From Pseudomonadota bacterium (GTDB lineage Bacteria > Pseudomonadota > Gammaproteobacteria > Burkholderiales > Ferrovaceae), in the NCBI GenBank assembly GCA_021804705.1, contig JAJZHC010000001.1, positions 1 through 31,106 on the forward strand: a stretch of DNA of 31,106 bases. The letters are read 5' to 3'. Within the stretch, counting starts at the first letter, position 1. Every line of letters starts with the position of its first letter. Positions 1,729 through 16,100 of the stretch are shown here, one piece after another. The position numbers and the translations under genes were made by a program. Under the pieces are notes generated by a model. That model made no database searches. It was given only the letters and a program-made list of their open reading frames with translations, and had not been told where the DNA came from.

Positions 1729-1878
1729 CTAACGGTCTTTGTCTTGCCAGGGACGGATGTTTTTGTAATTGATCAGTTTGGCAAGATCGCGGCTTTCGCG
1801 GAAGAAAAAGCGCATCATGAGCAAGTACAGCACCAGTACGACCGCAGCGCCAATGGCAATCCATGCTGTAATGCTCAT
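1729..1878 (-). CDS. Small single-pass membrane protein (49 aa), unknown function
   Basis: Not in the ORF track. MSITAWIAIGAAVVLVLYLLMMRFFFRESRDLAKLINYKNIRPWQDKDR has a clean hydrophobic segment and a charged tail. It starts 13 nt after the stop of the co-oriented Ysc84-like gene. Confidence 0.6.
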   Translation of the reverse strand: MSITAWIAIGAAVVLVLYLLMMRFFFRESRDLAKLINYKNIRPWQDKDR

Positions 1879-1891
1879 GATCACGCCACGC

Positions 1892-2455
1892 TCAACGCTT
1901 GATGCGCGTGATCTTGGTACCTTCCAGGCTCAAGCTGGCCATGAGACCCTGCTGATCAAAAATGAAGGCATAAGCGTCATCCTTCAGCGTCGTTGAGGAG
2001 AAATTTTTGGCGGCACCCTCATTCATCACGACCACTGTCGGCCCTACGCCGATTTCCCAGCCTTCAGACTTCTTGAGATAGCTCATGGCCTTGTCATTCA
2101 TGAGAAAAACTACATAGCCGTATGATTCGGCACCCGCTTGCCAGCCAAAAGAAGCAGAAACGGAATTGTAGTAGCCCATGACCTTCGAGCCTTCGTTCAG
2201 AACACCCTCACCGTAGCTTCCACCAAATACGAGGCCGGCCTTGATGATTTTAGGAAATACCAACACTGCCTTAGCCTGTTTTGAGATGTTCTCTGCAGTG
2301 GGATTAGTCCGGTACAAGGTTTGCAGTGCCTGGGCGGCATCCTTGTTCAGATCTTCGGCAGTAGCGGCACTGGCGGAATTGCTGATGGCAACCAGCGACA
2401 GGGCAGATGCGCCGAGGACACACAGGTTTAGAAAAACGCGTCGAATAGGGGTCAT
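1892..2455 (-). CDS. Ysc84/SYLF-domain lipid-binding protein, exported (twin-arginine-like leader)
   Basis: AKAVLVFPKIIKAGLVFGGSYGEG, SASFGWQAG and GLMASLSLEGTKI are SYLF motifs. The leader is MTPIRRVFL...ASA. AAAGGA sits 6 nt before ATG 2455, so the ORF-track extension to 2794 is probably not coding. Confidence 0.85.
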   Translation of the reverse strand: MTPIRRVFLNLCVLGASALSLVAISNSASAATAEDLNKDAAQALQTLYRTNPTAENISKQAKAVLVFPKIIKAGLVFGGSYGEGVLNEGSKVMGYYNSVSASFGWQAGAESYGYVVFLMNDKAMSYLKKSEGWEIGVGPTVVVMNEGAAKNFSSTTLKDDAYAFIFDQQGLMASLSLEGTKITRIKR

Positions 2456-2548
2456 GATCATTCCTTTGATATAAAGCAGCGCATAAACGGCAAATCTATC
2501 CAACAGCACTGCGAGGTAAACATGATGTATCGTCTCGCCAAGTATATC

Positions 2549-2564
2549 TGTGCGATAGCGAACA
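2549..2564. promoter_or_regulatory. Palindromic box TGTGCG-ATAG-CGAACA (candidate Crp/Fnr-family site)
   Basis: Intergenic. The inverted repeat extends to ATCTGT..ACAGAT. CATCAT lies 21 nt away toward the Ysc84 gene. Confidence 0.7.
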
Positions 2565-2576
2565 GATCCCATGTAT

Positions 2577-2900
2577 TTATCGAAGCTCGATGGGAAAAAA
2601 CAGGCTAATTCCCGGAGACGGCATGGGTGGGTAATAGACGGGTGGGGGCACGTAGACGGGTTGGGCGTACATGTAAGGGTAGTAACCCGGGCGGTCTTCG
2701 CGCCGGTTGTCATGGCCATGACCATAGTGGCGATTGCGCTCGTTACCGAGAGCCCCTGGACCCCCTTCATGGCCGCGATTATTCTGGTCTCCACGATTGT
2801 TTTGATCGCCCAATGCTGGCAGCGCGATCAAACTGGAAGTCGAAGCTATGAGCGCCACGGCCATCGCCATCTTTTTGATTTCTGTTCCAAGGATGTCCAA
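2577..2900 (-). CDS. Small secreted protein with a Pro/Tyr-rich C-terminus, unknown function
   Basis: Signal-peptide-like N-terminus, a DQNNRG duplication and a YxPPPVYYPP tail ending GISLFFPIELR. TTG start with GGAG ~7 nt upstream. Confidence 0.65.
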   Translation of the reverse strand: MDILGTEIKKMAMAVALIASTSSLIALPALGDQNNRGDQNNRGHEGGPGALGNERNRHYGHGHDNRREDRPGYYPYMYAQPVYVPPPVYYPPMPSPGISLFFPIELR

Positions 2901-2938
2901 TTTAACTCTCCATTTGTCAGAAACGTGAAAAGCAGAGC

Positions 2939-3403
2939 CTATTTTTTCTGTCTTGTCTTATGGTTGGCGCCCTGGCGAAACAGTTCGTCTGCATCCAGCT
3001 TTTGGGCATCGGTCATGCTCTCGTAAAGATTTTCAAAGACCGGGGCAAATTTCCTGATGGCTTCAGCATGGGCATCGACAATCTCGCCATAGGACTTAAG
3101 ATCCTCAACTGCATTCATGGTCTTGACGTTGTTGATTCTGGTTTGAGTCAGTGCGTCCATTTTTTTGGCGTTTTCACGCATGACGTCAGAAACCATGGAC
3201 CACTTTTCTTCTTGTTCAGGGGTAATTCTGAGCCGGGCATGCATGTTTTTGATGCGAAGCTCGACGCGTTCAACTTCGCTTGCTTTTGTGCCAGCCGTAC
3301 CTGCAATGGACGGGATTGCAGTAAACCCAATCGTGGCAACCAAAGCAGCCGCCACCGCCGTGCGCACACTGGTGTTTGTAAATTTTAAAAAATATTGATT
3401 CAT
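2939..3403 (-). CDS. Spy/CpxP (LTXXQ) family periplasmic protein
   Basis: Signal peptide, LRITPEQEEKW and SMTDAQK motifs, all-helical composition. Confidence 0.8.
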   Translation of the reverse strand: MNQYFLKFTNTSVRTAVAAALVATIGFTAIPSIAGTAGTKASEVERVELRIKNMHARLRITPEQEEKWSMVSDVMRENAKKMDALTQTRINNVKTMNAVEDLKSYGEIVDAHAEAIRKFAPVFENLYESMTDAQKLDADELFRQGANHKTRQKK

Positions 3404-3497
3404 TGCCGATCTCCTAGGGGACGTAAGGCATAAATGCCAGGCAATCAGTGGGAAAGACGATTCATGATGTATCTTCCTCCACGTTTAAAAACAAATA

Positions 3498-3513
3498 TGT
3501 GCGCCAGCGCACG
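3498..3513. promoter_or_regulatory. Palindromic box TGTGCG-CCAG-CGCACG
   Basis: Lies in the divergent intergenic region between the Spy-like gene and DUF4398. Confidence 0.7.
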
Positions 3514-3569
3514 GTGAAAGGACATCGCCATAAAGTTTAATGAGGTTGACGCATTTTCCATGGGAAACG

Positions 3570-3965
3570 ATGATGAAAAATATACTTATAATCAAATCAA
3601 TATCTGTGATGCAGGGAGCCGGCCTCATGGCTGCTTGCACACTTTTTGTGGCCGGTTGCGCAAGCATTCCGGCGCCAACCGAACAGATGACCATCTCAAG
3701 AGCTGCAGTGACCGAGGCCTCCACCGCCGGCAGCAACGAATATGCGCCCAGTCAGCTGAAAACCGCCATGGAGAAAATGGGTGGAGCAGAACAGGCCATG
3801 TCTGAAAAAAATTATGAGCAGGCCAGAAGTCTCGCCGAACAAGCCCAGGTGGATGCGCAATTGGCTCTAGCCACGACGCGTGCAGCCAAGGCCAAAAAGT
3901 CGGCAGACGCATTGCATGAAGACGCTCACGTACTTCGTGAAGAAATGAACCGAAATGCCAAGTAA
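3570..3965 (+). CDS. DUF4398-domain lipoprotein
   Basis: Lipobox FVAGC, then AVTEA...YAP..L..A..K...A and LAEQAQVDAQLA. Start is ATG 3570 or 3573. Confidence 0.75.
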   Translation: MMKNILIIKSISVMQGAGLMAACTLFVAGCASIPAPTEQMTISRAAVTEASTAGSNEYAPSQLKTAMEKMGGAEQAMSEKNYEQARSLAEQAQVDAQLALATTRAAKAKKSADALHEDAHVLREEMNRNAK

Positions 3966-3983
3966 TCCTCTCTGGAGTTGATC

Positions 3984-4871
3984 ATGCAAAAGAATTTTAA
4001 TTTCCCCATGTCCTTGATTGCTGTTGCGGCGTTAGCCAGTTGCAGCACCATGCCACAAAATTCATTACTGACGGATGCGCATCACAGTTATGACATGGCA
4101 CGGAATGATCCTCAGGTCACAACGCTTGCTCCCGTAGAGTTACGGGAGGCCGGCGATTCCCTGCTCAAGGCTGACAATGCCATGAGCAAAGATGAAAGCG
4201 AAGCAACAGTAAATCAACTGGCGTATATCGCCAGACAGAAAGTAAGGATTGCCCAGGAATCTGCCCAGCGCAAAGCTGCCGAGCAGGAAATTGCCAAGGC
4301 AGCGTCACAGCGGGATCACGACAGACTGGCAGCCAGAACGGCAGAAGCTGATGCGTCCAAGGCGCAGGTGGTCGCGATTCAGCAAACCGCGGATCAGCAA
4401 GCTACTGCTCTGGCAGTAGCAGGCGCCAATTCCGAACGCGATCGTGCGCGCATCGCAAAACAGGAGTCGCAGCTCAAGGATCTCAATGCTAAAAAGACGC
4501 AGCGCGGTATGGTGATTACATTGGGTGACGTCCTGTTCCACACCAACAAGTCTGAAGTAAACCCAGCCGGCATGCACAATGTACAAAAGCTGGCGGATTT
4601 TCTCATGCAATACCCGCAAGAACGTGTCTTGATAGAAGGCTACACCGACAGTACCGGTGGCGAAACTCTCAATCAAAATCTTTCGGAGCGACGTGCCGAA
4701 GTGGTACGCATGACACTGGTAAGAATGGGTGTCAGCGGCGACCGAATTGAAACAAAGGGCTATGGAGAGTCCTATCCGATTGCTGACAATAACACCCCTG
4801 TGAATCGTCAATTAAATCGGCGAGTGGAAATCATCCTCTCAGATGAGAATAAAAGGATCGCTCCACGTTAA
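3984..4871 (+). CDS. Lipoprotein with N-terminal DUF4398 and C-terminal OmpA-like peptidoglycan-binding domain
   Basis: Lipobox ALASC; RGMVITLGDVLF, IEGYTDSTG, NQNLSERRA and NRRVEIIL. GGAG lies 6 nt before ATG 3984. Confidence 0.9.
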   Translation: MQKNFNFPMSLIAVAALASCSTMPQNSLLTDAHHSYDMARNDPQVTTLAPVELREAGDSLLKADNAMSKDESEATVNQLAYIARQKVRIAQESAQRKAAEQEIAKAASQRDHDRLAARTAEADASKAQVVAIQQTADQQATALAVAGANSERDRARIAKQESQLKDLNAKKTQRGMVITLGDVLFHTNKSEVNPAGMHNVQKLADFLMQYPQERVLIEGYTDSTGGETLNQNLSERRAEVVRMTLVRMGVSGDRIETKGYGESYPIADNNTPVNRQLNRRVEIILSDENKRIAPR

Positions 4872-4894
4872 TCCGCTATCACGAGGACTAAAAA

Positions 4895-5053
4895 ATGTCA
4901 CTTGGAAACATCTTACTCATCGTTCTGGTGCTGTTGCTGATTGGTGTGATTCCCACCTGGCACCACAGCCATTCGTGGGGTTATGCTCCGAGTGGCGGGC
5001 TTGGCCTGCTATTGATTATTGTGGTTGTTTTGATGCTGATGGGGCGCTTGTAA
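4895..5053 (+). CDS. DUF3309-family small membrane protein (52 aa)
   Basis: Not in the ORF track. MSLGNILLIVLVLLLIGVIPTWHHSHSWGYAPSGGLGLLLIIVVVLMLMGRL matches the PTWxHSxxWGYxPSGGLG signature. GAGG RBS upstream. Confidence 0.85.
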   Translation: MSLGNILLIVLVLLLIGVIPTWHHSHSWGYAPSGGLGLLLIIVVVLMLMGRL

Positions 5054-5065
5054 CAGGCTGACCGG

Positions 5066-5353
5066 TCATTTGAATTTCGAATGGGCCACGGCAATGCCGG
5101 CCTTGAGGTCCTCCCAGACTTTGTCAGCGGTGCCTTTGAGGTGTACCCACGCCTCACCTCTGGCTTTTCCAAGTTCTTTCAATTTTTCAGAAGCCACGTT
5201 TTGCTTGGCTCGCAGTGCGCGAAGTTCATCGACACCTTTGACTTTCATATCGGCGCCCGCATTCTCCATCTTGGCTTCCAGTAAATTGATCTGTGCGCTC
5301 CATTCTTTCAGTTGTGCCGCCATTTTTTGCTTATAGGCATCTTGGGAATTCAT
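5066..5353 (-). CDS. Coiled-coil small protein (sll1863-like stress-associated family)
   Basis: AYKQKMAAQLKEWSAQI...AW..LK...DK.W.DLK pattern. GGAG RBS upstream. Confidence 0.7.
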   Translation of the reverse strand: MNSQDAYKQKMAAQLKEWSAQINLLEAKMENAGADMKVKGVDELRALRAKQNVASEKLKELGKARGEAWVHLKGTADKVWEDLKAGIAVAHSKFK

Positions 5354-5398
5354 GGTTCACTCCAAATCATAGGGTGATAATCAAAGGGATTTTCAGAA

Positions 5399-5779
5399 TT
5401 ACTTTACGAACAGTCTGTTTTCAACGCTTTTTACGCCGGTTATTGCACTGGCTAACGATTTTGCTTTGTCACTATTTTGTTGCGAATCCACGGATCCGCT
5501 CAAAGTCACGATACCCTTCGCTGTATCTACGCTGATTTGCAGCGTTTTGAGTCCGGGCTCAGCAAATATGGCTGATTTGACCTTGGTCGTAATCTCGGAA
5601 TCATCGAGGTTGACACTTAATTTTTCGCTTTTTTCATCTAGCTTCTTATTGGCATCATCAACTACCTGATCAAACTTTTTCCCAGCTGTCTCCGCGGGAC
5701 CAGGTTTGTTGCATGCAGTCAGACCGGCGACGATAAACAGGGAAATACCGATCAATTGGACATTCTTGATTGCGTTCAT
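5399..5779 (-). CDS. BON-domain (OsmY-like) lipoprotein
   Basis: Lipobox LTAC; DDSEITTKVKSA, ISVDTAKGIVTLSG and GVKSVENRL. Confidence 0.85.
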   Translation of the reverse strand: MNAIKNVQLIGISLFIVAGLTACNKPGPAETAGKKFDQVVDDANKKLDEKSEKLSVNLDDSEITTKVKSAIFAEPGLKTLQISVDTAKGIVTLSGSVDSQQNSDKAKSLASAITGVKSVENRLFVK

Positions 5780-5841
5780 TTTGGCTCTCATTCAAAACAG
5801 GTTCGTGAACATTATTTAACACCTGTTTTTCAAGGACGCTC

Positions 5842-5857
5842 CGTTCGCTATCGCACA
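5842..5857. promoter_or_regulatory. Palindromic box CGTTCG-CTAT-CGCACA
   Basis: Its reverse complement shares 15 of 16 bases with the box at 2549. Lies in the divergent BON/His-rich intergenic region. Confidence 0.65.
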
Positions 5858-5885
5858 TAACTCAGGTTTTGCTGATTGATATTTA

Positions 5886-5901
5886 TGTACGCCACCAGAC
5901 A
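5886..5901. promoter_or_regulatory. Degenerate box TGTACG-CCAC-CAGACA with downstream -10 TACTAT (5923-5928)
   Basis: Perfect left half and a right half with two mismatches. The -10 lies exactly 21 nt downstream, toward the His-rich gene. Confidence 0.55.
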
Positions 5902-5998
5902 GAAATTCTACTGTTCGTTCCTTACTATGGGGCCGTGAGTCGCTGTTTTGGTTCACTGAAGTGATGGATCCATAGTTGATTAATTTCTGGAGAAGTAA

Positions 5999-6250
5999 AT
6001 GACACAGTTACATGCGAAGAATACAGAATCGTCCCCATTGCATACGCAGGAGCAACATCATCATCAAGCTGCTGAGCATCATGAGCAGGCCTCAAAGCAC
6101 CACAAGGAGGCCGCAAAGCATCATGAGTCTGGTGATCACAAGGCAGCTGCGCATCATGCCCAGGTGGCTCATGGACATATGGCCCAAGCCAGCGAGCATG
6201 GGGCAGAAGCCAGCAAGAAGTATGCGAATACTTTGAGTCCTAAAAAGTAA
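5999..6250 (+). CDS. His-rich small helical protein (83 aa), probable metal binder
   Basis: 17 His in 83 aa, with HH pairs in heptad register. GGAGAAG RBS upstream. Confidence 0.75.
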   Translation: MTQLHAKNTESSPLHTQEQHHHQAAEHHEQASKHHKEAAKHHESGDHKAAAHHAQVAHGHMAQASEHGAEASKKYANTLSPKK

Positions 6251-6370
6251 TTCAAATCAACACCAGATCTGCAGAAGAAAATGCGCCTGCGTTCGAAAGC
6301 CAAGTCTGTTCTTGAACGCAGGCTCAAAATGACTGCACATTCCCCGATCCAGTTTTTAGAGGGTTATGCC

Positions 6371-6727
6371 ATGAATATAAAATCATTTTTTAATCGGATG
6401 CTTGGTGCACTGTTTTGGATCAGTGTTTTTTCAATATCTCCGGTCGTCAATGCAGAATTAATTGGCACGGAGAAACTGGCTCAGCCTGATCAAGTCCAGG
6501 ACAGAGTAGTTGTTGACAGTTTTATTGTCCGTTCCGATGTTCAGAAGAAGCTGCAGGAGATGGGATTGAGTGCCATTGTCACTGCACAGCGTGTGGCTTT
6601 GCTTAGCGACTCTGAAGCACGGGAGCTCTCGCAAAAATTCGATCTATTGCCGGCAGGTGGCAGCTTTTCTAACAATGAACTCATCATTATTCTGTTGGCC
6701 GTCGTGTTGCTGGTGCTTATCCTGTGA
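6371..6727 (+). CDS. PA2779-family protein
   Basis: Signal-like N-terminus; DVQKKLQEMG, RVALLSDSE and LPAGG followed by a C-terminal hydrophobic anchor. Confidence 0.7.
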   Translation: MNIKSFFNRMLGALFWISVFSISPVVNAELIGTEKLAQPDQVQDRVVVDSFIVRSDVQKKLQEMGLSAIVTAQRVALLSDSEARELSQKFDLLPAGGSFSNNELIIILLAVVLLVLIL

Positions 6728-6796
6728 TTATCCTGATAATCTAGCTTGGTGTTTTGAGGCAATCTGAGGACTGATGTGATGGGCGCAGAATGCATG

Positions 6797-6836
6797 AAAA
6801 GACCAGGGTGGCTATCATGCCACCCTGGTCTTTTTT
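6797..6836. terminator. Bidirectional intrinsic terminator
   Basis: AAAAGACCAGGGTGGC-TATCAT-GCCACCCTGGTCTTTTTT, a 16-bp stem flanked by A and T runs, between convergent genes. Confidence 0.9.
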
Positions 6837-6856
6837 CAGTCTACAACGGCCAGATG

Positions 6857-7999
6857 CTACTTTGTACCGGAAACTTCTACCTCTACTCGGCGATCGGGTT
6901 GCAGGCAGTCGACCAGCTTTTTAGTTACTTTTTTGCCTTTGCATTCACCAGGCTTCGTTACAGGCTCAGAGCCGTCCATACCCTTGGTAGTGATCTTTCC
7001 GGCGGGGATGCCAGCAGACTCCACCAGGTAATCTTTGACAGATTCAGCACGGCGCTTCGAGAGCTTGACATTATAGTCATGCTTGCCGATTCGATCCGTG
7101 TGCCCAGTGACTGTGATGACACCAAACTCTGTTCCCTTGAGCTCTGAAGCAAATCTGTCCAGTGCTTGTTTGCCTTCAGGCCGCACCCTCGATTTGTCGA
7201 ATCCAAAAAGTGAATCCGCAGTGAATGAGACTTTCTTGTGGACAGTCGGCGGCGGTGTAACAACCACTGGTTCCGGTTTTGGCTCTGGTGCTGCGGCAAC
7301 CACAACGGGTACGGGCTCTGCAGCTCGGGGTGCAGGGGCCGGTTCGGCCTTCTTTCCACCAAAGCGGTAGACCAGACCAACAGAGACGAGATCAATGTCG
7401 CCCCGGTTTCCTACAGCATCGTTGATCCGGTAACGTTCTGCCTCGAGACGCATCCCGAGCGATTCATTGAATGCATACTGTAACCCAAGGCCCGCCTTGT
7501 AATTGGCATCTCCTTTGCTGGGGTTTGGATTGAGCACAGTGACTAATCCCGTTCCCGTAAAAGAATCCTTTGCATCGGAATAGATGGCCCCTATTCGGCC
7601 AAATGCCGAAAACTTTTCAGTGATGGGAAGAAAGCCAACCAGGTCCAGATTGACGCCATCGACTTTGGTGTTGCCATGCAGAGTTCCAGCGGGTGTGGTG
7701 GTGGAAGTAAATCCGAATGTTCCCAGATCAAAGTAACCGCCCTCAACCGCAAAATACTTGTTGAACAGATATCCGGCAAATACCTTGTAGCCGGTATCCC
7801 GGTTGTCATCCGTCATGGAGTTGGTGGTAAACCCGCTGCCTAAGAGGCTACGGGTGATTCGTGCATCATCAATAGTGGCTTTCGACTGGCCTACATTGCC
7901 ACCCACATACCACCCCAGGTCGTCCGCTACCGAGAACGGGCTGGAGATTAATGCGAGTGTCACCAGACCCATCGCCCCTGAGACTCTTGTTGATTTCAT
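6857..7999 (-). CDS. OmpA-family outer membrane protein (beta-barrel, Pro/Ala linker, peptidoglycan-binding domain)
   Basis: GWYVGGNVG, FAVEGGYFDLG and VSVGLVYRFG barrel strands; PAPAP linker; FTADSLFGFD, TGHTDRIG, LSKRRAESV and QPDRRVEVEV, with a Cys pair. GGAG RBS before ATG 7999. Confidence 0.92.
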   Translation of the reverse strand: MKSTRVSGAMGLVTLALISSPFSVADDLGWYVGGNVGQSKATIDDARITRSLLGSGFTTNSMTDDNRDTGYKVFAGYLFNKYFAVEGGYFDLGTFGFTSTTTPAGTLHGNTKVDGVNLDLVGFLPITEKFSAFGRIGAIYSDAKDSFTGTGLVTVLNPNPSKGDANYKAGLGLQYAFNESLGMRLEAERYRINDAVGNRGDIDLVSVGLVYRFGGKKAEPAPAPRAAEPVPVVVAAAPEPKPEPVVVTPPPTVHKKVSFTADSLFGFDKSRVRPEGKQALDRFASELKGTEFGVITVTGHTDRIGKHDYNVKLSKRRAESVKDYLVESAGIPAGKITTKGMDGSEPVTKPGECKGKKVTKKLVDCLQPDRRVEVEVSGTK

Positions 8000-8052
8000 G
8001 TTCTTCTCCAGAAATATGCGGTGCATTGATTGTGGTCTCTGATGCATCCCGT

Positions 8053-10026
8053 TTACGGGGCTGGTACGTTAATAATGGTGTTCACCAGCGTCACTGAAGA
8101 AACCAGACTCAGCACCCTGCCGTTTAATGTTGTCAGTAGGAGTGTATTCGTAGCATTCGCAGGGTTGGAGAACGTGGCGCCAGAGTAGGCAATGATGTTG
8201 CCTACCATGGTCCCACCGCCTGCATAGTTGATTACCGCGGCGCTACCCACTTGCCAATACACATTCTTGGGTTGAGCGGGAGCAATCAGGATGACATTTC
8301 TCGGGGCCGTGTCTCCTACAGTGAGGGAAGATGACGGCATCTTGAATACCCAGACTGCATTAGCATCACCGTGGGGGTCAAGGGTTAGATCTGAACCTGT
8401 GATTCCAAACCCACTACTGGAACTATAAACCCCGGGAGAGATGGTTTGCCCACCCAGGTTGGCAGGAGCCGTTCCAGTGACTGGCATATTTACCAGGGTT
8501 GTGTTCGCTGCCACTGCGTCGAGGCGAGCCTGGGTTGCAACCGCACAATACGAAGCATTGACAGCGGCAGACGTGGGGCCCGTGGTGGATGTCGTACAGG
8601 TATAAATTGTTCCATTCACAGCGCCAATATTGCTTGGGGTTTCCGTATAAATATCTCCTGCCGTATCGTGGAATCCAGTAACCATGGAAGTTCCTGTCGC
8701 GATGGTTCCAATGTCTCCATTGACTACGGTTTTGATTCCCTGATTGGTCATTCCAGATGATCCCCCAAAAGTCCCAAACGTCGAAGCCGTTCCAAGGATC
8801 GAGGGTGCTGGTGGTGCCGTTGCCGTGCAACTTCCTGCCGTAAAATCCCAGGAGTAGTCGTTAGCCATCATGTCTGCAGGAATGGCCAGATCCTTGACGC
8901 CTGTGCCACCACCTTTGATCGTAGCCGTATAGGTGACGCCGGGAGTAAGATTGTTCAGCGTCGTAAAAGTGGCTGTAAGACCTGTGGCTGCATCAAGCAC
9001 CACAGAAGCCGCTGTGACGGGGGTCGAAGCAGGGGCCGGTCCAGTCACCGTAAAGGTCGCAGAGTTGACGGTCAGTGGGTCCATCCGCACGCCGATGGGC
9101 AAGCTGAAGGTTGCATTGATTGTCAAACCCGGGCATAAGCCTGCCGAACCAGAGAAGGGGTAGGTGGATAGCACCGAGATATTGGCTGCCGGTATCGGTG
9201 CCGCCGTGGTATCGAAGGTCCATATGTAATTGCTTGCCGCGGGCAATGCCGCCTGATTACCTGCCAGGGCATTGCCAGCCAGATCCGTGGCGCCGGTGGT
9301 GATGGTGGCGGTATAGGTGGTCCCCGCTACAAGAATGGTTGTAGGTTTAAACACGGCAGTTCTTGAACCTACCACGTAAGACACGGCACCAGCTACAGGC
9401 GCGGTGCCAGGGCCAGTCACAGAAAAGCTCGTTGCGTTGATTGTTAACGGGGCCATATCCTCCGTGAATACGGCAGTGATTGCCGTATTGGTAGGAACAT
9501 CAGTAGTCGGACCCGGTGTCGTCGTGGCAGGATCGGTGAGCGAGACCCTGGGCCGTGTCGTGTCTGGCGCAAGACCTGTCGTAAAATGCCATACGTAAGG
9601 AACAGCCAGCGCCAGACCTGTGGAGATGCTCCGGGCGCCTGTGATCGTTCCAGTATATAGGGTCAGGGGAGCCAGATTCGCTGCCGTGGTGAAGGTGGCA
9701 ATTCGGTTAGTGGCATCCAGGGTCACGGTGCCTGTGGCGTTGGCGCAGGGTGTCGCGCAGGTCACGGTAAAGGTAGCGCCACCGGTCAACGGGGACATGG
9801 GCTCACTAAAAGCAGCGGTAATGATGGTGTTGTTGATGGGCACGCCAGTGGCGTTATTGACTGGGGCGACTGCAGTGACCGTTGGGGGTAGTGCAACAAT
9901 GCTGCCCACGCCCAGAATCGGATCACGCCCACCGCCACCACCTCCGCATCCTGCTGCCAAAGCGCTCAACAGCAATGCCATGGACCATGTCAGGAATCTG
10001 GAATACCCTTTGAGTTCATTTTTCAT
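8053..10026 (-). CDS. Lipoprotein with three bacterial Ig-like (Big_5/SbsA) domains and a C-terminal DUF3494 ice-binding-like domain
   Basis: Lipobox LAAGC followed by a Gly run. Three repeats of the P-x-V...A-x-F-S/T-E-x-M...T-x-Y-T-A-T-I-T...Y-x-W-x-F-T-T type. DUF3494 motifs LGTASTFG, TVVNGDIG, PGVY, LTLDPHGDANAVWVF, KNVYWQVGSAA and GNIIA. Start ATG 10026 with GAGGG RBS. Confidence 0.88.
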   Translation of the reverse strand: MKNELKGYSRFLTWSMALLLSALAAGCGGGGGGRDPILGVGSIVALPPTVTAVAPVNNATGVPINNTIITAAFSEPMSPLTGGATFTVTCATPCANATGTVTLDATNRIATFTTAANLAPLTLYTGTITGARSISTGLALAVPYVWHFTTGLAPDTTRPRVSLTDPATTTPGPTTDVPTNTAITAVFTEDMAPLTINATSFSVTGPGTAPVAGAVSYVVGSRTAVFKPTTILVAGTTYTATITTGATDLAGNALAGNQAALPAASNYIWTFDTTAAPIPAANISVLSTYPFSGSAGLCPGLTINATFSLPIGVRMDPLTVNSATFTVTGPAPASTPVTAASVVLDAATGLTATFTTLNNLTPGVTYTATIKGGGTGVKDLAIPADMMANDYSWDFTAGSCTATAPPAPSILGTASTFGTFGGSSGMTNQGIKTVVNGDIGTIATGTSMVTGFHDTAGDIYTETPSNIGAVNGTIYTCTTSTTGPTSAAVNASYCAVATQARLDAVAANTTLVNMPVTGTAPANLGGQTISPGVYSSSSGFGITGSDLTLDPHGDANAVWVFKMPSSSLTVGDTAPRNVILIAPAQPKNVYWQVGSAAVINYAGGGTMVGNIIAYSGATFSNPANATNTLLLTTLNGRVLSLVSSVTLVNTIINVPAP

Positions 10027-10165
10027 TTTCTTACCCTCTTCATCTGGTCCAGAAAGCCGCTTATGTGGCCGACAGACCTTAGTCGGTGCATACACCCGCC
10101 GTCCAACACAAATGCTGTACACGCAGGTCACGGACACAAGTCTCGCTTATTGAGGCTGGAAGCTC

Positions 10166-10181
10166 TGTACGGTGGCGTACA
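10166..10181. promoter_or_regulatory. Perfect palindromic box TGTACG-GTGG-CGTACA
   Basis: Upstream of the ice-binding gene; GAGACT lies 21 nt downstream on the - strand. Confidence 0.75.
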
Positions 10182-10235
10182 TAGCCTGATGATTTTTGCG
10201 GTAATGAGCGAAAATGAGACGGTTTTGTGGCTGGC

Positions 10236-11009
10236 TTACTTGCCCAGAAACCAGAACATCGAGAGCATGGCGATGTCCATGACGCCCGTGCCTGCCCAGC
10301 CTAATATCCTGATTTTCATGGAAATGGCGAACGGGCCCATGACTTCCCGTCTTGAAGCCAGTAGCATGATGACAACCATGATGGAAACTGAAATCACCCC
10401 GTTGATGACAGCGCTCCAGTAGAGAGCCTTGATCGGGTCAATGGGTGTGAAGCAGAGCAAGACACCCATCAAAGTTGATAAGGCAATGATGCCGTAAAAC
10501 CGCTTTGCCGCTGCAAAGCCTCAATTCCAGGCCATTGCGCCACGCAAATGCCCCCGCCATGCCGATGGAGGTGTCCAGCCTGATACAAGGAATGAAAATC
10601 TGCAGGATAAGAGAAAGGATGCCGAAAAGAATCGCATAAAGGTGTTTGGGACCGCCAACCATCAATTTCATGGCATATCCCATGGCAGCAATATCAGCTG
10701 CAATATTGATGGTGTTAGCAAACAGGAGCAATCCAACAACGCCATGCAGCAGCCAGGCGGGAAATTGCTGGCGAATGTTGGTGGCAAGAACGTGGCCATT
10801 GACGCGACCAATCCGGGCGCTGATGACCTGGATAGCCACCATCAACGGATAGGTTAGCAGTATCGCCCACAACATGCTGAAGCCAAACTGGGCGCCAGCC
10901 TGTGAATAGGTGGCAATGCCGCTGGGGTCGTCGTCAGTGTCCCCGGTGATCAATCCTGGGCCAAGGTTTCTGACCCAGGAGGGCGATGATATTCCTGCTT
11001 TCGCGGCAG
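10236..11009 (-). pseudogene. Nramp/MntH-related divalent metal transporter, decayed
   Basis: GPGLITG..DDDPSGIATYSQAGAQFG N-terminus and PIDPIKALYWSAVING C-terminus are in different frames. Middle segments IRLDTSIGM and AGAFAWRNGLEL are juxtaposed, there is a frameshift near 10515, and no convincing start codon. Confidence 0.85.
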
Positions 11010-11717
11010 TCAGCTCATGATTCTGGTGTAAGTTTCCTTGTCTGCAGCATAGCATTCGCATGCAGCACCTTCCAGGCCATCACCATTGAGAATGGTGATT
11101 TCACCGCGACCGTAACGAATAAATTTTTGATTTTGCAGTGATGTGGCAGCCTTGGTGACGCCAACGCGACGTACGCCCAGCATGTAGGCCATAAATTCAT
11201 GGGTGATGTGAAATTGATTGGAGTGTGCACGATCCCGGGTCATCAGCAGCCAACGCGCAAGTCGTGCTTCCACCCGGTGAAAATGGGTACAAGCTGCGGT
11301 TTGCGAGAGCTGGGCAATAACGACGCCAAGATAGCGTCTTAACTCCAGTTGCAGGGCAGCGCTCCGGTCGATTTCAAGTCGAAATAACGCAGCTTTCATG
11401 CGCAGTGCCACGCCGCCGCCTTGCACCAGGACATGCAACGATGAAACATCAGTGCCCAGCATCAAGGGAACGCCAAACATTCCTTCATCACCGATCAGGC
11501 CCACTTCCAGTCCTGCATGGCCACCAATGGGGGCAATCAGGGAAATGAAACTGTCGGTGGGAAAGTACACATGGTGAATGCGCTCGCCTGGTTCAACCAG
11601 AACTTCAGAAAAATTGAGCTCGACGGACTCGCAACCTGCCATAAACTGCATGCGGTATTTGTGCGGCAAGGCGTCCAGAATATGGTTTGAAAATGTCGCT
11701 GGAATGAGCGCGGACAC
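11010..11717 (-). CDS. Crp/Fnr-family transcriptional regulator (paralog B)
   Basis: cNMP-like beta-roll (VYFPTDSFISL...EVGLIGDEG), RLARWLL, HTH THEFMAYMLGVRRVGVTKAA and C-terminal CECY. GTG start with AAAGGAG. Confidence 0.92.
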   Translation of the reverse strand: MSALIPATFSNHILDALPHKYRMQFMAGCESVELNFSEVLVEPGERIHHVYFPTDSFISLIAPIGGHAGLEVGLIGDEGMFGVPLMLGTDVSSLHVLVQGGGVALRMKAALFRLEIDRSAALQLELRRYLGVVIAQLSQTAACTHFHRVEARLARWLLMTRDRAHSNQFHITHEFMAYMLGVRRVGVTKAATSLQNQKFIRYGRGEITILNGDGLEGAACECYAADKETYTRIMS

Positions 11718-11785
11718 TGGACTCCTTTAAGCGTGGGCACCGGGGGAAAGCTTGTCCCACAGTGGGCCAAAAAAGAGAGGGCGTC

Positions 11786-11801
11786 TGGGCGGTAGCGCAC
11801 A
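11786..11801. promoter_or_regulatory. Palindromic box TGGGCG-GTAG-CGCACA
   Basis: Upstream of Crp paralog B; CACTGT lies 21 nt downstream on the - strand. Confidence 0.7.
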
Positions 11802-11851
11802 GAACGAGGGTGAAATATGTGCCTTGAGCTTGCGCGGAAGAGGGGGAATGA

Positions 11852-12301
11852 TTACTTTGATAGCAGGCGGTCAAACTCCCTATTGACCACCATATAGCAC
11901 TCTCAGACTCGGGCTTCCAGGCGCGGCCGGTCAAGCACCAGGATGTGGCCGCGGCTGTATTTGATCAAGCCTTCTCATTGCAGACGACCTGCAGCTTCGG
12001 TGACATCCTCGCGACGCACCCCCAGCATGTTGGAAATCAGCTCCCGGGTCATGACAATTTCGTTGGAAGTCAGGCGGTCGAGGCTGAGCAGCAGCAGACG
12101 ATGCAGTTCACCGTGGTGGTTGAATTCGTTCAGCAATGTATTCACATGCAGACGGTAGGCATGACCGGCACTTTGCACGATGGCCTGGGTAGGCGTGGTT
12201 TCGCTACCCATGTACCGGGCGACGCTGATAACGCCTTCATAGCCTTCCGCTGGCAGGGCGGCGAGGATGTGATTCTGGCAGGGGTCAGAAACGTTTGGCA
12301 T
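11852..12301 (-). pseudogene. Crp/Fnr-family regulator remnant
   Basis: Collinear with the 12323-13030 paralog but with two in-frame internal deletions and in-frame TGA codons at 11975-11977 and 11903-11905. The frame continues *EGLIKYSRGHILVLDRPRLEARV*ECYMVVNREFDRLLSK to TAA at 11852. Confidence 0.88.
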
Positions 12302-12322
12302 TGAACCCCCTGTTGCTGATAG

Positions 12323-13030
12323 TCAGTCAGGAAGCAGTCGGTCAAATTCCTTTTTGACCACTGCATAGCATTCACAGGCCCGCTTTTCCAAGCCGGCGCG
12401 GTTCAGTATGGTGATGTGGCCCCGGCTGTACTTGATCAAGCCTGCTTTTTGCACGTTTCCTGCGGCCTCGGTGACTCCCTCCCGGCGCACGCCGAGCATG
12501 TCTGCAATCAACTCCTGCGTCATGACCAATTCGTTGGAGTTGAGGCGATCGAAACTCAGCAACAGCCAGCGGCAAAATTGCTGGTCCAATGTGTGGTGTC
12601 GGTTGCATACCGCGGTCTGTGCCATTTGCGTCAGCAGCGCCTGGGTGTAGCGCAACAATAATCGTTGCATGGGACCGGCGCGATAGAACTCGTGTTTCAG
12701 GAGCGGCCCCCTCAACCGGTAGGCGTGCCCGGCGCTTTGCACCACGGCGCGGCTGGGTGTGGACTCGCCGCCCATGAAGAGTGAGACTCCGACAATCCCT
12801 TCGTTGCCCACCACGGCAATTTCTGCCGATGAACCATCTTCCATGACGTAGAGGAGGGAAACGATCGAGTTGATGGGAAAATAAACATAGCTCATCTGAA
12901 TGCCAGATTCGTAAAGCGACTCTCCGAGAGGCAGGGGAATCCGTTCCAGATTGGCGAAGATACGCTCGTAGTCTTCCGACGGCAAAGCGGCTAGGAGGTG
13001 ATTCTCACGGGGATCATGAGCTAGTGGCAT
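12323..13030 (-). CDS. Crp/Fnr-family transcriptional regulator (paralog A)
   Basis: YVYFPINSIVSL, AVVGNEG, CRWLLL, HTH TQELIADMLGVRREGVTEAA and CECY. AGGAGG RBS. Confidence 0.93.
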   Translation of the reverse strand: MPLAHDPRENHLLAALPSEDYERIFANLERIPLPLGESLYESGIQMSYVYFPINSIVSLLYVMEDGSSAEIAVVGNEGIVGVSLFMGGESTPSRAVVQSAGHAYRLRGPLLKHEFYRAGPMQRLLLRYTQALLTQMAQTAVCNRHHTLDQQFCRWLLLSFDRLNSNELVMTQELIADMLGVRREGVTEAAGNVQKAGLIKYSRGHITILNRAGLEKRACECYAVVKKEFDRLLPD

Positions 13031-13079
13031 ACAAAAGCCTCCTGTTGACGGGCCTAGTGTACATTCTTTCCATGGATTG

Positions 13080-13095
13080 TGTGCGGTATCGTACA
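13080..13095. promoter_or_regulatory. Palindromic box TGTGCG-GTAT-CGTACA with -10 TAGGAT (13117-13122)
   Basis: Between the divergent Crp paralog A and glucan synthase genes; the -10 is exactly 21 nt downstream on the + strand. Confidence 0.75.
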
Positions 13096-13178
13096 GAGGC
13101 TGCTACGACCAGAGTATAGGATTATCGGATGCGGGGGAACCCGTTCCCAGGCGACCATTTCCAGTTGAGGATTTCCCT

Positions 13179-16100
13179 TTGTTGATTGTGAGCCGGACCC
13201 GCGAACGGATCACTCAGGCTTTTGCCCGGAACAGCACATTAAGTCGGTGGCCGAGGATATTGCCTGATGAAGAGCCTCCGTTGCGCTCTGTGCTGTTTAG
13301 CGCCGATCAGATGGCACAGCACGGCAAGGTTTTCGCGGCGGCACATCAGCTGGCTGCAGGAACAGCCCCAGATTTGTTGCTGACCCGGTTGGCCGAGAAC
13401 GAAAGCGCTCTGACCCGGATATGTAATTTGCTGACAGAGGCGGTTACTGCAAAGCGCCGCATCACGCCAGCGGGGGAATGGCTGCTCGACAATTTCTATC
13501 TCATAGAAGAACAAATTCGTACGGCCAAAAGACATCTTCCCAAGGGTTACAGTTTTGAACTGCCGCGCGTGGCCTCTAGCCCATCGGCAGGGCGTCCGCG
13601 CGTGTATGACATTGCGCTCGAAGTGATCGCGCACGGTGATGGTCGCGTGGATATGGAAAGCCTCAGCCGCTTCGTGACGGCCTACCAGACCGTGGCAGCC
13701 CTCAAGTTGGGCGAACTATGGGCCATCCCCATCATGCTGCGCCTGGCGCTCATAGAAAATCTCCGTCGGGTCGGCACCCGGATTGCCATAGAGTGGTTTG
13801 AACGGGATCTGGCAGATTCTTGGGCAGACAGGATGACGGAGATTGCGGAGAAGGATCCCAAGAGCCTGATTCTGGTGATCTCGGACATGGCACGCTCAAA
13901 CCCGCCCATGGCAAGTCCCTTCGTCGCGGAGCTCGCGCGTCGCTTGCAGGGACGAGGCCCTGCGCTGGCGCTACCGCTGACCTGGATTGATCAGCGCCTT
14001 GCGGAATCCGGATTGACCATCGAGCGACTGGTTCAGTCAGAAAATCAGCATCAGGCTTCCGACCAGGTTTCCATCAGCAACTGCATCGCCAGTCTTCGGG
14101 TTTTGGGTGCGGTGGATTGGCGTGAGTTTGTGGAGACCATGAGTGTCGTCGAGCAGACACTGCTTGAGGATCCCAGTGGAATCTACGGCAGGATGGATTT
14201 TGTCACTCGTGATCGTTATCGCCACGCAACGGAAGGAATCGCAAAGAAAAGCATCCTGACCGAGCAGGAAGTCGCCAGAAAAGCCGTGGAGTTGGCAGGT
14301 GCTGGTATGGATGATCGTGCGCGACATGTAGGTTACTACCTGATCGGCAAGGAATTGCCCAAGCTTGAGCAGCTTGTGGGTTTTCGCCGCTCCATATTTG
14401 GGGCCGTGCTAAAAGCCGCCGGGCGATTGCCGTTGCTCCCGTATCTGGGTGGAATCGTGTTGATTGCAGCGTTGATTTGCATGGGCATGGTCATGCAGGC
14501 GCGTTCAGAAGGTATTTCAGGTATTGCGTTGTTCGGCGTTGCCATCGTCGTATTGATCGCTGCCAGCCAGTTGTCCGTAGCGTTGGTGAATTGGGTGGCC
14601 ACATTGCTGGTGTCGCCCCATGCATTGCCAAGAATGGACTTCTCCGACGGTATTCCAGATACGGCGCGAACACTGGTGGTGGTGCCGACCATGCTGACCA
14701 ATGCACTGGATATCGAAGCGTTGGTTGAGGCGCTGGAAGTCCGGTTTCTGGCAAACCAGGATAAATGCCTGCACTTTGGATTGTTGACAGATTTTTGCGA
14801 TGCACTTCAGGAGTCACTCCCGGAAGATGGCGCGCTGGTCCAGCTGGCGCATGCCAGAATTGACGAATTGAACGAGAAGTATAGGGCTGGCGAGAAGGGG
14901 GCTCAGGGGGATTTCTTCTACCTGTTTCATCGTCCCAGGCGATGGAATCCGCAGGAACGGGTGTGGATGGGTTACGAGCGCAAGCGCGGCAAGTTGTTGG
15001 ATTTGAACGCGTTGCTTCGCAGAAGCGATCAAGATCTTTCCGCGAGTAACTTCTCGTCCATTGTGGGTGATACCGCAATGCTGTCCAGCGTGAAATATGT
15101 CATCACACTCGACACGGATACACAACTGCCACGCGATGCAGCGCGTCAGTTTGTCGGAGCGATGGCGCACCCGCTCAATCGCGCACGCTACGACGAAGAA
15201 AAGAAACGCATCACGGAAGGCTATGGAATCCTGCAACCGCGTGTGGCCATCAGCCTTCCGGGAGCGAGTCGGTCCCGCTACGCAAGGTTGTACGGAGGGG
15301 AGCCTGGCATTGATCCCTATACGCGTGTCGTCTCGGATGTATACCAGGACGTATTTGACGAGGGTTCGTTTGTTGGCAAGGGAGTTTACGATGTTGATGC
15401 CTTCGAGCTGGCGCTCAATGGGCGCCTCCAGGAAAATTGCATCCTCAGCCATGATCTGCTCGAGGGATGTTACGCCCGCTCAGGGCTGTTGAGCGACGTG
15501 TATTTATATGAAGACTACCCGGTTTGCTACAGCGTCGATGTGAGCCGGCGTTATCGGTGGATACGCGGCGATTGGCAGCTGGTGGGATGGTTGCTGTCAC
15601 GCGTCCCGGGTGGCGACACCAACCCGCTTTCGCTACTGTCGCAATGGAAGCTGATTGATAACATGCGGCGCAGCCTCGTGCCAGCGGCGCTGACGTTGAT
15701 GTTTATATTGGGATGGTCGGTCCTCTCGCCGCCAGGGCTATGGATCGGGTTGGCGATCGGCATCATGCTTGTTCCCGCCTTATGCGTTTCTTTCCTGGAT
15801 TTGTTTCGCAAACCGGAGGAGGTATTGCTCAGGCAGCATCTTCTGGCCGTGTTGCGTTCGGCCTCCAGGCGCCTCACACAAGCGGTTTTCGAAATCTCCT
15901 GCCTTCCATTTGAAGCCTATTTCAGTCTGGGAGCCATTACGCAAACGGTATGGCGGATGGTGGTGACCCACAGGCGATTGCTGGAATGGAATCCTTCTGC
16001 AGCTGCCGAGCACGGCCTAACCAGCAAGGGAGGCAACGAACTCGTGGTCAGTTTACGGGCCATGTGGGTTGCTCCTGCGGTCGCCATTGCGTTGACGTTT

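What the first reader, a model, noticed from the sequence alone, without database searches (positions are those of the whole stretch)
2522..13122. Six of the seven boxes have an nAnnnT hexamer exactly 21 nt away: class II activator geometry
Seen: counting 21 nt from the box edge toward a downstream gene gives CATCAT (2527-2522, -), GAAGAT (3476-3471, -), TACTAT (5923-5928, +), GAGACT (10144-10139, -), CACTGT (11764-11759, -) and TAGGAT (13117-13122, +). All keep the A and final T that are the most conserved -10 positions. That is 6 of 11 box/direction combinations facing a gene; the rough chance expectation is about 1 in 20 per test. Established: a 16-bp Crp/Fnr site centred at -41.5 leaves this gap to the -10 (class II activation, replacing the -35). 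Inference: these are activator-dependent promoters with start sites near 2515, 3464, 5935, 10132, 11752 and 13129.
Basis: partly seen in the sequence, partly recalled or inferred. Interest (0 to 1): 0.78.

Follow-up and report, generated by a model that had tools for sequence, protein, structure and literature searches.

The report
Class II promoters of Crp stress regulon
Six genes or operons of a stress-protein island in a mine-drainage bacterium carry the same 16-bp box at exactly the distance from a minimal -10 element that textbook Crp/Fnr activators need, and the same promoter grammar recurs in hundreds of other proteobacteria, so this is a real but conventionally built set of activator-dependent promoters belonging to an unstudied regulator.

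Summary
All six hexamers lie where stated. nAnnnT occurs at 21 nt in 6 of 14 box/direction combinations, against about 1 at every other offset.

The pre-specified test holds on independent DNA. Around homologues of the island's Crp regulator in 80 other species, 208 boxes give 161 of 416 hits at offset 21, against about 16 at other offsets.

A G at -33 marks the same side, forming a partial -35 "GAC" with a 17-bp spacer. So does a ribosome-site-preceded gene start. The spacer itself is unconserved.

A matrix trained only on other genomes ranks the six predicted promoters among the seven best sites in the whole 1.47-Mb assembly.

The class II reading (box centre at -41.5, weak core promoter, Crp-family activator encoded next door) is well supported. 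It remains untested by experiment: no RNA data covered the locus.

Refinements:
- The -35 is not wholly replaced.
- CrpB orthologues are themselves class II targets.
- CrpA's own promoters usually have a near-consensus -10 only 18-20 nt from the box.

The scan has met this module before on other DNA (e1-5233691, e1-3949964). I found no paper on the box. It is a new member of a known kind.

The parts
2549..2564 (.). Box 1, TGTGCGATAGCGAACA. It lies between the stop of a small secreted-protein gene and the Ysc84-domain gene.
   Evidence: composite matrix score 28.9 on the minus side
2522..2527 (-). -10-like CATCAT, 21 nt from box 1. Predicted start near 2515. The Ysc84-domain gene ATG is at 2461 or 2455, and the gene ends at 1892.
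3498..3513 (.). Box 2, TGTGCGCCAGCGCACG, in the divergent region between the LTXXQ (Spy/CpxP-like) gene and the DUF4398 operon.
   Evidence: score 20.4 on the minus side
3471..3476 (-). -10-like GAAGAT, 21 nt from box 2. Predicted start near 3464. The LTXXQ gene ATG is at 3403 (gene 2939-3403). The small gene 2577-2900 probably follows in the same unit.
5842..5857 (.). Box 3, CGTTCGCTATCGCACA, the seventh box. It has a GA flank towards the BON gene (5399-5791, -) but no nAnnnT at 21 nt; the nearest is AATAAT at 25 nt. It lies 44 bp centre to centre from box 4.
5886..5901 (.). Box 4, TGTACGCCACCAGACA, the weakest box.
   Evidence: score 24.6 on the plus side
5923..5928 (+). -10-like TACTAT, 21 nt from box 4. 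Predicted start near 5935. The His-rich 83-aa gene starts with ATG at 5999, followed by a DUF6627/PA2779-family gene at 6281-6727.
   Evidence: An orthologue of the 83-aa gene in another genome (L041) has the same arrangement.
10166..10181 (.). Box 5, TGTACGGTGGCGTACA, a perfect palindromic core.
   Evidence: best composite score in the genome, 34.1
10139..10144 (-). -10-like GAGACT, 21 nt from box 5. Predicted start near 10132. The Big_5/ice-binding-like lipoprotein really starts at ATG 10027 (signal peptide with a lipobox), not at GTG 10137. OmpA (6857-8047) follows 5 nt after its stop.
11786..11801 (.). Box 6, TGGGCGGTAGCGCACA. Read towards CrpB it is TGTGCGCTACCGCCCA followed by GAC. This form is typical of CrpB orthologues.
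   Evidence: score 33.7
11759..11764 (-). -10-like CACTGT, 21 nt from box 6. Predicted start near 11752. CrpB starts with GTG at 11717 (gene 11010-11717).
   Evidence: 18 of 21 CrpB orthologues have the same geometry
13080..13095 (.). Box 7, TGTGCGGTATCGTACA, in the divergent region between CrpA and the cyclic beta-1,2-glucan synthase gene.
   Evidence: score 32.4 on the plus side
13117..13122 (+). -10-like TAGGAT, 21 nt from box 7. Predicted start near 13129. The GH94 cyclic glucan synthase probably starts at TTG 13179, after GAGGA, and ends at 21914.
12323..13030 (-). CrpA, a Crp/Fnr-family regulator (cNMP-binding-like domain plus Crp HTH). It is the probable box-binding activator. Its own side of box 7 has TACACT at 18 nt, not 21.
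11010..11717 (-). CrpB, a paralogue 40% identical to CrpA and itself a class II target.

Best explanation
The six sites are activator-dependent sigma-70-type promoters of class II architecture. A dimer of the island's own Crp/Fnr-family regulator binds the dyad T-n-TGTRCG-N4-CGYACA-n-A, centred at about -41.5. The binder is most probably CrpA, possibly together with CrpB. Next to RNA polymerase the dimer compensates for a crippled -35 (only G-A-C at -33 to -31 survives, overlapping the box edge) and a minimal -10 (yAnnnT).

Together the promoters would switch on an envelope and stress gene set:
- a Ysc84-domain protein
- an LTXXQ/Spy-like protein
- a His-rich small protein plus a PA2779-family protein
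- an ice-binding-like lipoprotein plus OmpA
- the second regulator, CrpB
- cyclic beta-1,2-glucan synthase

Shown here: the sites, their exact spacing, their orientation towards genes, their conservation across species, and their association with the regulator gene.

Inferred: which protein binds, that it activates rather than represses, the exact start sites, and the signal.
For: Geometry and statistics
- In the window, 6 of 14 directions have the hexamer at offset 21, and the peak is only there.
- Replication on independent genomes gives 161 of 416 against about 16. Smaller sets agree.

Oriented logo
- Box positions are nearly invariant.
- The spacer from -30 to -13 carries about 0 bits.
- G-33 is present in 144 of 161, A-32 in 152 of 161 and C-31 in 86 of 161.
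- This gives GAC in the register of TTGACA, with a 17-bp spacer to the hexamer.

Orientation
- G-33 and a downstream SD-preceded ORF both go with the hexamer side (Fisher P = 9e-36 and 1e-10).
- A matrix trained only on other genomes ranks the six sites among the seven best in the whole assembly. The next site elsewhere scores 13.1 against 20.4-34.1.
- All six predicted starts leave 35-105-nt leaders ahead of SD-preceded start codons.

Weak core promoters
- No stand-alone sigma-70-like promoter lies upstream of these genes.

Link to the regulator
- Boxes are about 20-fold enriched around CrpA homologues: 208 against about 11 expected in 1.39 Mb.
- 20 of 30 loci with no CrpB-like copy within 10 kb still have such promoters.
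- pKLC102 carries a single CrpA-type gene and the same grammar.
- CrpA has Crp-type HTH and cNMP-binding-like domains.

Precedent
- The class II position at -41.5 is that of CRP, FNR and NtcA (PMC11850224).
Against: - No transcription start, binding or activation has been measured for any member. Metatranscriptome contigs from the same study do not cover the locus.
- The only dRNA-seq data set I could reach (B. cenocepacia J2315) contains no promoter with this box.
- A site covering -49..-34 also overlaps the -35, which is equally a good place for a repressor.
- One box (5842) and two gene-facing sides (3498+ towards DUF4398, 13080- towards CrpA) do not fit the rule.
- Cyclic glucan synthase orthologues elsewhere often lack an upstream box.
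- Which paralogue binds is not resolved.
Confidence: 0.8

Rival explanations
1. The box is the operator of a Crp-family repressor. It overlaps the -35 region of ordinary sigma-70 promoters and blocks polymerase. The fixed spacing would then only reflect the partial -35 (GAC) abutting the box.
For: The box covers -49..-34, and a GAC in -35 register is conserved at 17 bp from the hexamer. No expression data exist. At CrpA's own promoters the box sits 18-20 nt from a near-consensus -10, an arrangement compatible with autorepression.
Against: The core elements are poor. The first two -35 positions are fixed as CA by the box. Apart from A-11 and T-7, only T/C at -12 is preferred in the -10, and the six window promoters match 5-7 of 12 consensus positions. 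Repressed promoters usually have strong core elements. The one-base precision of the spacing (161 at 21 nt, against 30 at 22 and 20 at 20) is what protein-protein contact at -41.5 demands. Crp/Fnr proteins at -41.5 are classically activators.
Confidence: 0.1
2. The promoters are read by an alternative sigma factor, such as a stationary-phase sigma-S-like factor, and the box is bound by some regulator other than the neighbouring Crp proteins.
For: The regulon (BON/OsmY-like, CsbD, DUF883/ElaB-like, Cfa, DUF3309) resembles the RpoS regulon of enterobacteria (established knowledge). C is the commonest base at -8, in 73 of 161 promoters, as in sigma-S-preferred TATACT.
Against: There is no preference for C at -13 and no TAA after the hexamer. 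No sigma gene is in the island. The box is tightly linked to CrpA genes across orders and on mobile elements. Its TGTG core fits the Arg-Glu pair in the CrpA recognition helix (sequence; comparison with CRP from established knowledge, not tested here).
Confidence: 0.06
3. The result is a chance coincidence, or the reader picked the offset and pattern after the fact.
Against: P is 0.009 after correction for 32 offsets in the window. The pre-specified test on independent genomes gives P = 2.5e-114.
Confidence: 0.01

Closest known systems
E. coli CRP (CAP) at class II promoters such as galP1
   Same: A dimeric Crp-family protein on a dyad with a TGT-N10-ACA frame centred at -41.5. The site overlaps the -35 and the core promoter is weak. 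The Arg-Glu pair is kept at the start of the recognition helix (RRE in CrpA).
   Different: The half-site is TGTRCG with a 4-bp centre instead of TGTGA with 6. A partial -35 GAC is conserved beside the box. The effector is unknown. The targets are stress and envelope genes, not catabolic ones. CrpA is only distantly related to solved Crp-family structures (best E-value 1.8e-6).
Cyanobacterial NtcA-activated promoters (GTA-N8-TAC, about 22 nt, TAN3T)
   Same: Identical grammar: a 14-bp core plus 22 nt equals the 16-bp box plus 21 nt. The TGTACG-N4-CGTACA variants of the box literally contain GTA-N8-TAC. The -10 is minimal, TAnnnT-like. The site is class II at -41.5 (PMC11850224).
   Different: CrpA is not NtcA: it scores 20 bits against the NtcA model, whose cut-off is 245. 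The CG at positions 5-6 of each half-site is nearly invariant here. The hosts are Beta- and Gammaproteobacteria, and the regulon is unrelated to nitrogen.
FNR, Anr and FixK class II promoters (TTGAT-N4-ATCAA at -41.5), including the B. cenocepacia lxa regulon
   Same: A Crp/Fnr protein at -41.5 switches on an island of stress and persistence genes, among them BON-domain proteins (PMC3721108).
   Different: The lxa motif is TGA-N6-TCA, not this box. CrpA lacks any match to FNR-specific models.

Membership tests
Class II Crp/Fnr-dependent promoter | A two-fold symmetric activator site centred near -41.5, that is 21-22 nt between the 16/14-bp core and the -10 hexamer | tested here: met
   Box, 21 nt, then nAnnnT at six sites. 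The spacing peak is sharp in the window and in 80 other species. The position relative to a measured start site is not known.
Class II Crp/Fnr-dependent promoter | Transcription start about 41-42 nt downstream of the site centre | not testable with these tools
   No RNA run covers the locus. The J2315 dRNA-seq tables hold no promoter with this box.
Class II Crp/Fnr-dependent promoter | Poor or absent -35 element, with the core promoter too weak to act alone | tested here: met
   Only GAC of TTGACA is kept. In the -10, beyond A-11 and T-7 (which defined the set), only T/C at -12 is preferred. The six window promoters match 5-7 of 12 consensus positions. None passes a 9-of-12 sigma-70 scan.
Class II Crp/Fnr-dependent promoter | Expression depends on the activator and on the helical phasing of the site | not testable with these tools
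   This needs reporter fusions or knock-outs. The one-base sharpness of the conserved spacing is indirect support.
Crp/Fnr family transcription factor (the candidate activator CrpA) | N-terminal cNMP-binding-like beta-barrel plus C-terminal Crp-type winged HTH, about 230 aa | tested here: met
   PF00027 and PF13545 match in the 235-aa CrpA. PF13545 matches in CrpB. Distant matches to solved Crp-family structures.
Crp/Fnr family transcription factor (the candidate activator CrpA) | The protein binds the box | not testable with these tools
   The evidence is association only. Boxes are about 20-fold enriched around the gene, lie upstream of the gene itself, and travel with it on pKLC102 and Burkholderia plasmids.
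NtcA (cyanobacterial global nitrogen regulator) | Score above the cut-off of the NtcA equivalog model | tested here: not met
   TIGR03697 gives 20.2 bits against a cut-off of 245.
FNR-type lxa regulon of Burkholderia cenocepacia | Motif TGA-N6-TCA upstream of the regulated genes | tested here: not met
   The published motif differs from TGTRCG-N4-CGYACA (PMC3721108).

The most novel reading that the evidence does not exclude
The boxes mark a widespread, unstudied general-stress or dormancy regulon of Beta- and Gammaproteobacteria, run by a two-tier Crp cascade. CrpA, whose own promoter has a differently spaced box, would activate CrpB together with a set of small envelope and stress proteins and often a PAS-GGDEF cyclase. 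The set parallels the RpoS regulon. The module travels horizontally as a self-contained unit: it is on the ICE pKLC102, on Burkholderia plasmids and in a low-GC island here.
Probability: 0.5. Interest if true: 0.7.

Novelty: new member of a known kind. Interest (0 to 1): 0.5.

Why it matters
The mechanism is textbook, but the regulator, its box and its regulon do not appear in any paper I could find. Yet more than 560 species genomes encode a relative of the regulator, and the same grammar is found on a Pseudomonas aeruginosa ICE and on Burkholderia plasmids.

The promoter grammar is precise enough (box, GAC, 17-bp spacer, yAnnnT) to predict the regulon and its start sites in any genome. That makes the function and the signal of this Crp subfamily directly testable in cultured carriers.

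For this acid-mine-drainage organism, it ties cyclic glucan synthesis, an ice-binding-like adhesin, OmpA-type proteins and periplasmic stress proteins into one co-regulated, probably acquired, envelope-protection module.

Tried and rejected
1. RNA evidence. Two run searches found only DNA runs and three metatranscriptomes from the same mine-drainage study. Laying them gave no RNA coverage of 1800-13600, so no start sites.

2. Literature on the box or regulon. Searches on Crp/Fnr with BON, OmpA, CsbD and DUF883, on Ferrovum, and on several spellings of the motif gave nothing relevant.

[quoted passage not shown] 4. The J2315 dRNA-seq promoter tables were searched for box-plus-flank words in both the general and the Burkholderia variant. 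Only chance hits at the wrong distance appeared. The stored file is cut, so this is not proof of absence.

5. BerA/Bcam1349 (c-di-GMP-binding Crp) as a possible orthologue. No binding site is published in the held papers, and berA has an RpoN-type promoter. The question is left open.

6. Orthologue-by-orthologue footprinting failed, because no fetched genome shares the island's gene order at nucleotide level.

7. My first, crude gene map (ORFs of 60 aa or more) gave only 64% against 53% facing genes. The regulon is rich in 45-70-aa proteins, so I replaced it with the SD-plus-ORF test.

8. Extended -10: G is enriched at -15, not at -14, so this is not the canonical TGn.


Full report
**What is in the window.**

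Nucleotides 1.9-22 kb hold a gene set with lower G+C (0.45-0.57) than the assembly (0.598).

| Coordinates | Strand | Gene |
|---|---|---|
| 1892-2461 | - | Ysc84-domain protein |
| 2577-2900 | - | small secreted protein |
| 2939-3403 | - | LTXXQ/Spy-like protein |
| 3540-3965 and 3978-4871 | + | DUF4398 and DUF4398-OmpA |
| about 4893-5043 | + | region similar to DUF3309 genes of other loci |
| 5399-5791 | - | BON-domain protein |
| 5999-6250 | + | His-rich 83-aa protein |
| 6281-6727 | + | DUF6627/PA2779-family protein |
| 6857-8047 | - | OmpA |
| 8053-10027 | - | Big_5/ice-binding-like lipoprotein |
| 10239-11061 | - | internally deleted Nramp remnant |
| 11010-11717 | - | CrpB, a Crp/Fnr paralogue |
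| about 11861-12103 | - | Crp remnant with two stop codons |
| 12323-13030 | - | CrpA, a Crp/Fnr paralogue |
| about 13179-21914 | + | GH94 cyclic beta-1,2-glucan synthase, about 2,900 aa |

The assembly is a 76%-complete genome of 1.47 Mb in 206 contigs. DNA runs from a mine-drainage metagenome hold the sequence. The closest named relative of CrpA, at 92% identity, is in a Ferrovaceae genome.

**The observation.**

- Counting every box in both directions (14 tests), nAnnnT occurs at 21 nt six times. At each of the other 31 offsets between 8 and 39 nt it occurs 0-4 times, with a mean of 1.03.
- With the local background frequency, the binomial probability is 3e-4, or 0.009 after correction for all 32 offsets.
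- Each of the six boxes has the hexamer on exactly one side, and always on a side that faces a gene. The three sides that face a gene's 3' end have none.
- The boxes themselves are not chance. The whole assembly has 11 sites with at most 1 mismatch, about the number expected. Five of them lie within 10.5 kb here.

CrpA homologues occur patchily, in 20 of 61 relatives searched, and often as tandem paralogues. They also occur in at least 566 places among species-representative genomes. These include Accumulibacter, Propionivibrio, Thiobacillus, Halomonas, Variovorax, Aromatoleum, Polaromonas, Steroidobacter and even a Leptospirillum bin.

| Data set | Boxes found | Hits at offset 21 | Other offsets |
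|---|---|---|---|
| 29 short loci | 34 non-redundant | 25 of 68 | about 4 |
| 20 loci of up to 20 kb (12-20 kb) | 52 (about 3 expected) | 34 of 104 | about 5 |
| 80 named loci from other species | 208 (about 11 expected) | 161 of 416 | mean 15.8, maximum 30 |

For the 80-locus set, z = 29 and P = 2.5e-114.

**Anatomy of the promoter.**

I oriented the 161 sites by the hexamer.
- The motif is T-n-TGT(G/A)CG-C-(T/C)-A-G-CG(C/T)ACA-G-A-C.
- T at -51 and A at -32 are symmetric partners, so the protein site is a 20-bp dyad.
- G at -33 is not symmetric. It is found on 90% of hexamer sides and on 30% of the other sides (Fisher P = 9e-36).
- G-33, A-32 and C-31 are exactly the GAC of TTGACA, with a 17-bp spacer to the hexamer.
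- The spacer from -30 to -13 carries essentially no information, so the conservation is not shared ancestry of whole promoters.
- The -10 is (T/C)-A-n-n-(c)-T. G is enriched at -15, which is not the canonical extended -10 position.
- Hexamer sides are followed by an SD-preceded ORF of at least 40 aa within 160 nt in 72% of cases, against 39% for other sides (P = 1e-10).

**Back to the window.**

I built a position matrix (-52 to -6) only from the other genomes and scanned both strands of the whole assembly. The six predicted promoters scored 34.1, 33.7, 32.4, 28.9, 24.6 and 20.4. The only intruder was the reverse side of box 2549, at 23.6. The best site outside the window scored 13.1.

| Predicted start | Start codon (with a Shine-Dalgarno sequence) | Leader |
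|---|---|---|
| 2515 | ATG 2461/2455 | 54-60 nt |
| 3464 | ATG 3403 | 61 nt |
| 5935 | ATG 5999 | 64 nt |
| 10132 | ATG 10027 | 105 nt |
| 11752 | GTG 11717 | 35 nt |
| 13129 | TTG 13179 | 50 nt |

Two ORFs that seemed to overlap the promoters (GTG 10137, TTG 13077) are over-extended: the lipoprotein signal peptide and the conserved part of the synthase begin downstream.

The six core promoters match only 5-7 of 12 consensus positions. A consensus scan finds no stand-alone sigma-70-like promoter upstream of the six genes.

**Mechanism.**

The box occupies -49 to -34 and is centred at -41.5. That is where CRP, FNR and NtcA make their class II contacts with RNA polymerase (PMC11850224; established knowledge). 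The following features together make class II activation by a Crp-family dimer the best explanation; I put it at about 0.8:
- weak core elements
- one-base precision of the spacing
- co-orientation with genes
- tight association with a Crp-family gene

CrpA is the likelier binder, for four reasons.
- The boxes follow CrpA genes.
- 20 of 30 loci with no CrpB-like copy nearby still have such promoters.
- pKLC102 has a single CrpA-type gene and the same grammar.
- CrpA keeps an Arg-Glu pair in its recognition helix, as CRP does for TGTG, whereas CrpB has Arg-Val (sequences; the comparison with CRP rests on established knowledge and was not tested here).

The main rival is a repressor occluding the -35, at about 0.1. 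It cannot be excluded without expression data.

**Refinements beyond the finding.**

1. CrpB is a conserved target. Of 21 CrpB orthologues, 18 have box, 21 nt and nAnnnT, typically with a degenerate promoter-proximal half-site CG(C/T)CCA followed by GAC. The window has this at 11786.
2. CrpA's own promoters differ. Only 8 of 51 have the hexamer at 21 nt. Many have a near-consensus TATAnT at 18-20 nt: TAnnnT occurs there on 15 of 70 Crp-facing sides against 9 of 346 others (P = 2e-7). The window has TACACT at 18 nt. At that spacing the box's ACA can serve as the -35. This suggests autoregulation of a different kind and a two-tier cascade.
3. The families most often found behind such promoters elsewhere are PAS-GGDEF cyclases, DUF3309, BON, CsbD, DUF883 (ElaB-like), DUF4398, Ysc84 and cyclopropane-fatty-acid synthase. 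This set recalls the enterobacterial RpoS regulon.
4. In this 76%-complete assembly, the regulon seems confined to the island.

**What does not fit.**

- Box 5842 faces the BON gene with a GA flank, but the hexamer at 21 nt is GTTAAA. The nearest nAnnnT is at 25 nt, and a perfect 9-bp inverted repeat (5794-5802 / 5821-5829) lies between the box and the ATG.
- The DUF4398 side of box 3498 has TAAAGT at 17 nt only.
- Glucan-synthase orthologues elsewhere often lack a box, so that link may be specific to this island, to pKLC102 and to a few others.

**Known or new.**

The architecture is that of CRP, FNR and above all NtcA promoters (GTA-N8-TAC, 22 nt, TAN3T). Some boxes here literally contain GTA-N8-TAC. 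But CrpA is far below the NtcA model cut-off.

I found no paper on this box or regulon. The superficially similar Burkholderia lxa regulon uses an FNR-type motif.

Earlier notes of this scan describe the same module on other DNA: e1-5233691 in a Thiobacillus, and e1-3949964 in a soil bacterium. They agree with what I measured independently here.

My verdict is a real, statistically overwhelming and mechanistically conventional promoter class. It is a new member of a known kind, attached to an unstudied and widespread regulator.

Noticed in passing
window 13053-13079 (minus side of box 13080), and CrpA orthologues in L051-L130: CrpA's own promoters usually carry a near-consensus -10 (TATAGT, TATACT or TATAAT; TACACT in the window) 18-20 nt from the box instead of 21. 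TAnnnT is found there on 15 of 70 Crp-facing sides against 9 of 346 others. This suggests a separate, autoregulatory arrangement in which the box's ACA doubles as the -35.
   Followed up: partly
window 11786-11801 and CrpB orthologues: The promoter-proximal half-site before crpB is conserved as CG(C/T)CCA-GAC rather than CGCACA. It is found in 18 of 21 orthologues with class II spacing. It may be a deliberately weak or hybrid site, perhaps for a heterodimer or for delayed expression in a cascade.
   Followed up: partly
window 10239-11061 (-): The Nramp gene is a remnant. Residues matching profile positions 1-107 and 319-356 are present, and the middle of about 210 positions is missing.
   Followed up: partly
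window 11008: A contig of the DNA run X1 has 12 extra bases (CCCAAGGAAAGG) behind position 11008, at the 3' end of crpB. This is a strain variant or a assembly difference.
   Followed up: no
window 5794-5802 / 5821-5829: A perfect 9-bp inverted repeat (AAAACAGGT / ACCTGTTTT, 18 nt apart) lies between box 5842 and the BON start codon, where a -10 would be expected. It could be a leader hairpin or a second operator.
   Followed up: no
L132 (P. aeruginosa pKLC102, 84800-103483) and L131 (B. multivorans plasmid): The CrpA-type regulator travels with a GH94 cyclic glucan synthase, a fatty-acid desaturase, a methyltransferase and small DUF3309, CsbD and glycine-zipper genes on an ICE and on plasmids, with the same box-GAC-spacer-yAnnnT grammar. 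The module is mobile cargo.
   Followed up: partly
L056 (Leptospirillum sp. bin, DAHUYM010000004.1): A Nitrospirota mine-drainage bin encodes a CrpA 80% identical to the window's, and a CrpB-like copy. This is either cross-phylum transfer in acid mine drainage or a binning error.
   Followed up: no
oriented promoters of L051-L130, position -15: G is enriched three bases before the hexamer, in 91 of 161 promoters. This is one base off the canonical extended -10 TGn, and I have no explanation.
   Followed up: no
L051-L130, cluster 1: The most frequent class II target outside the window is a PAS-GGDEF diguanylate cyclase: 21 of 28 copies have the hexamer at 21 nt. This hints at a link between this Crp regulon and c-di-GMP signalling. 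No such gene is in the window.
   Followed up: no
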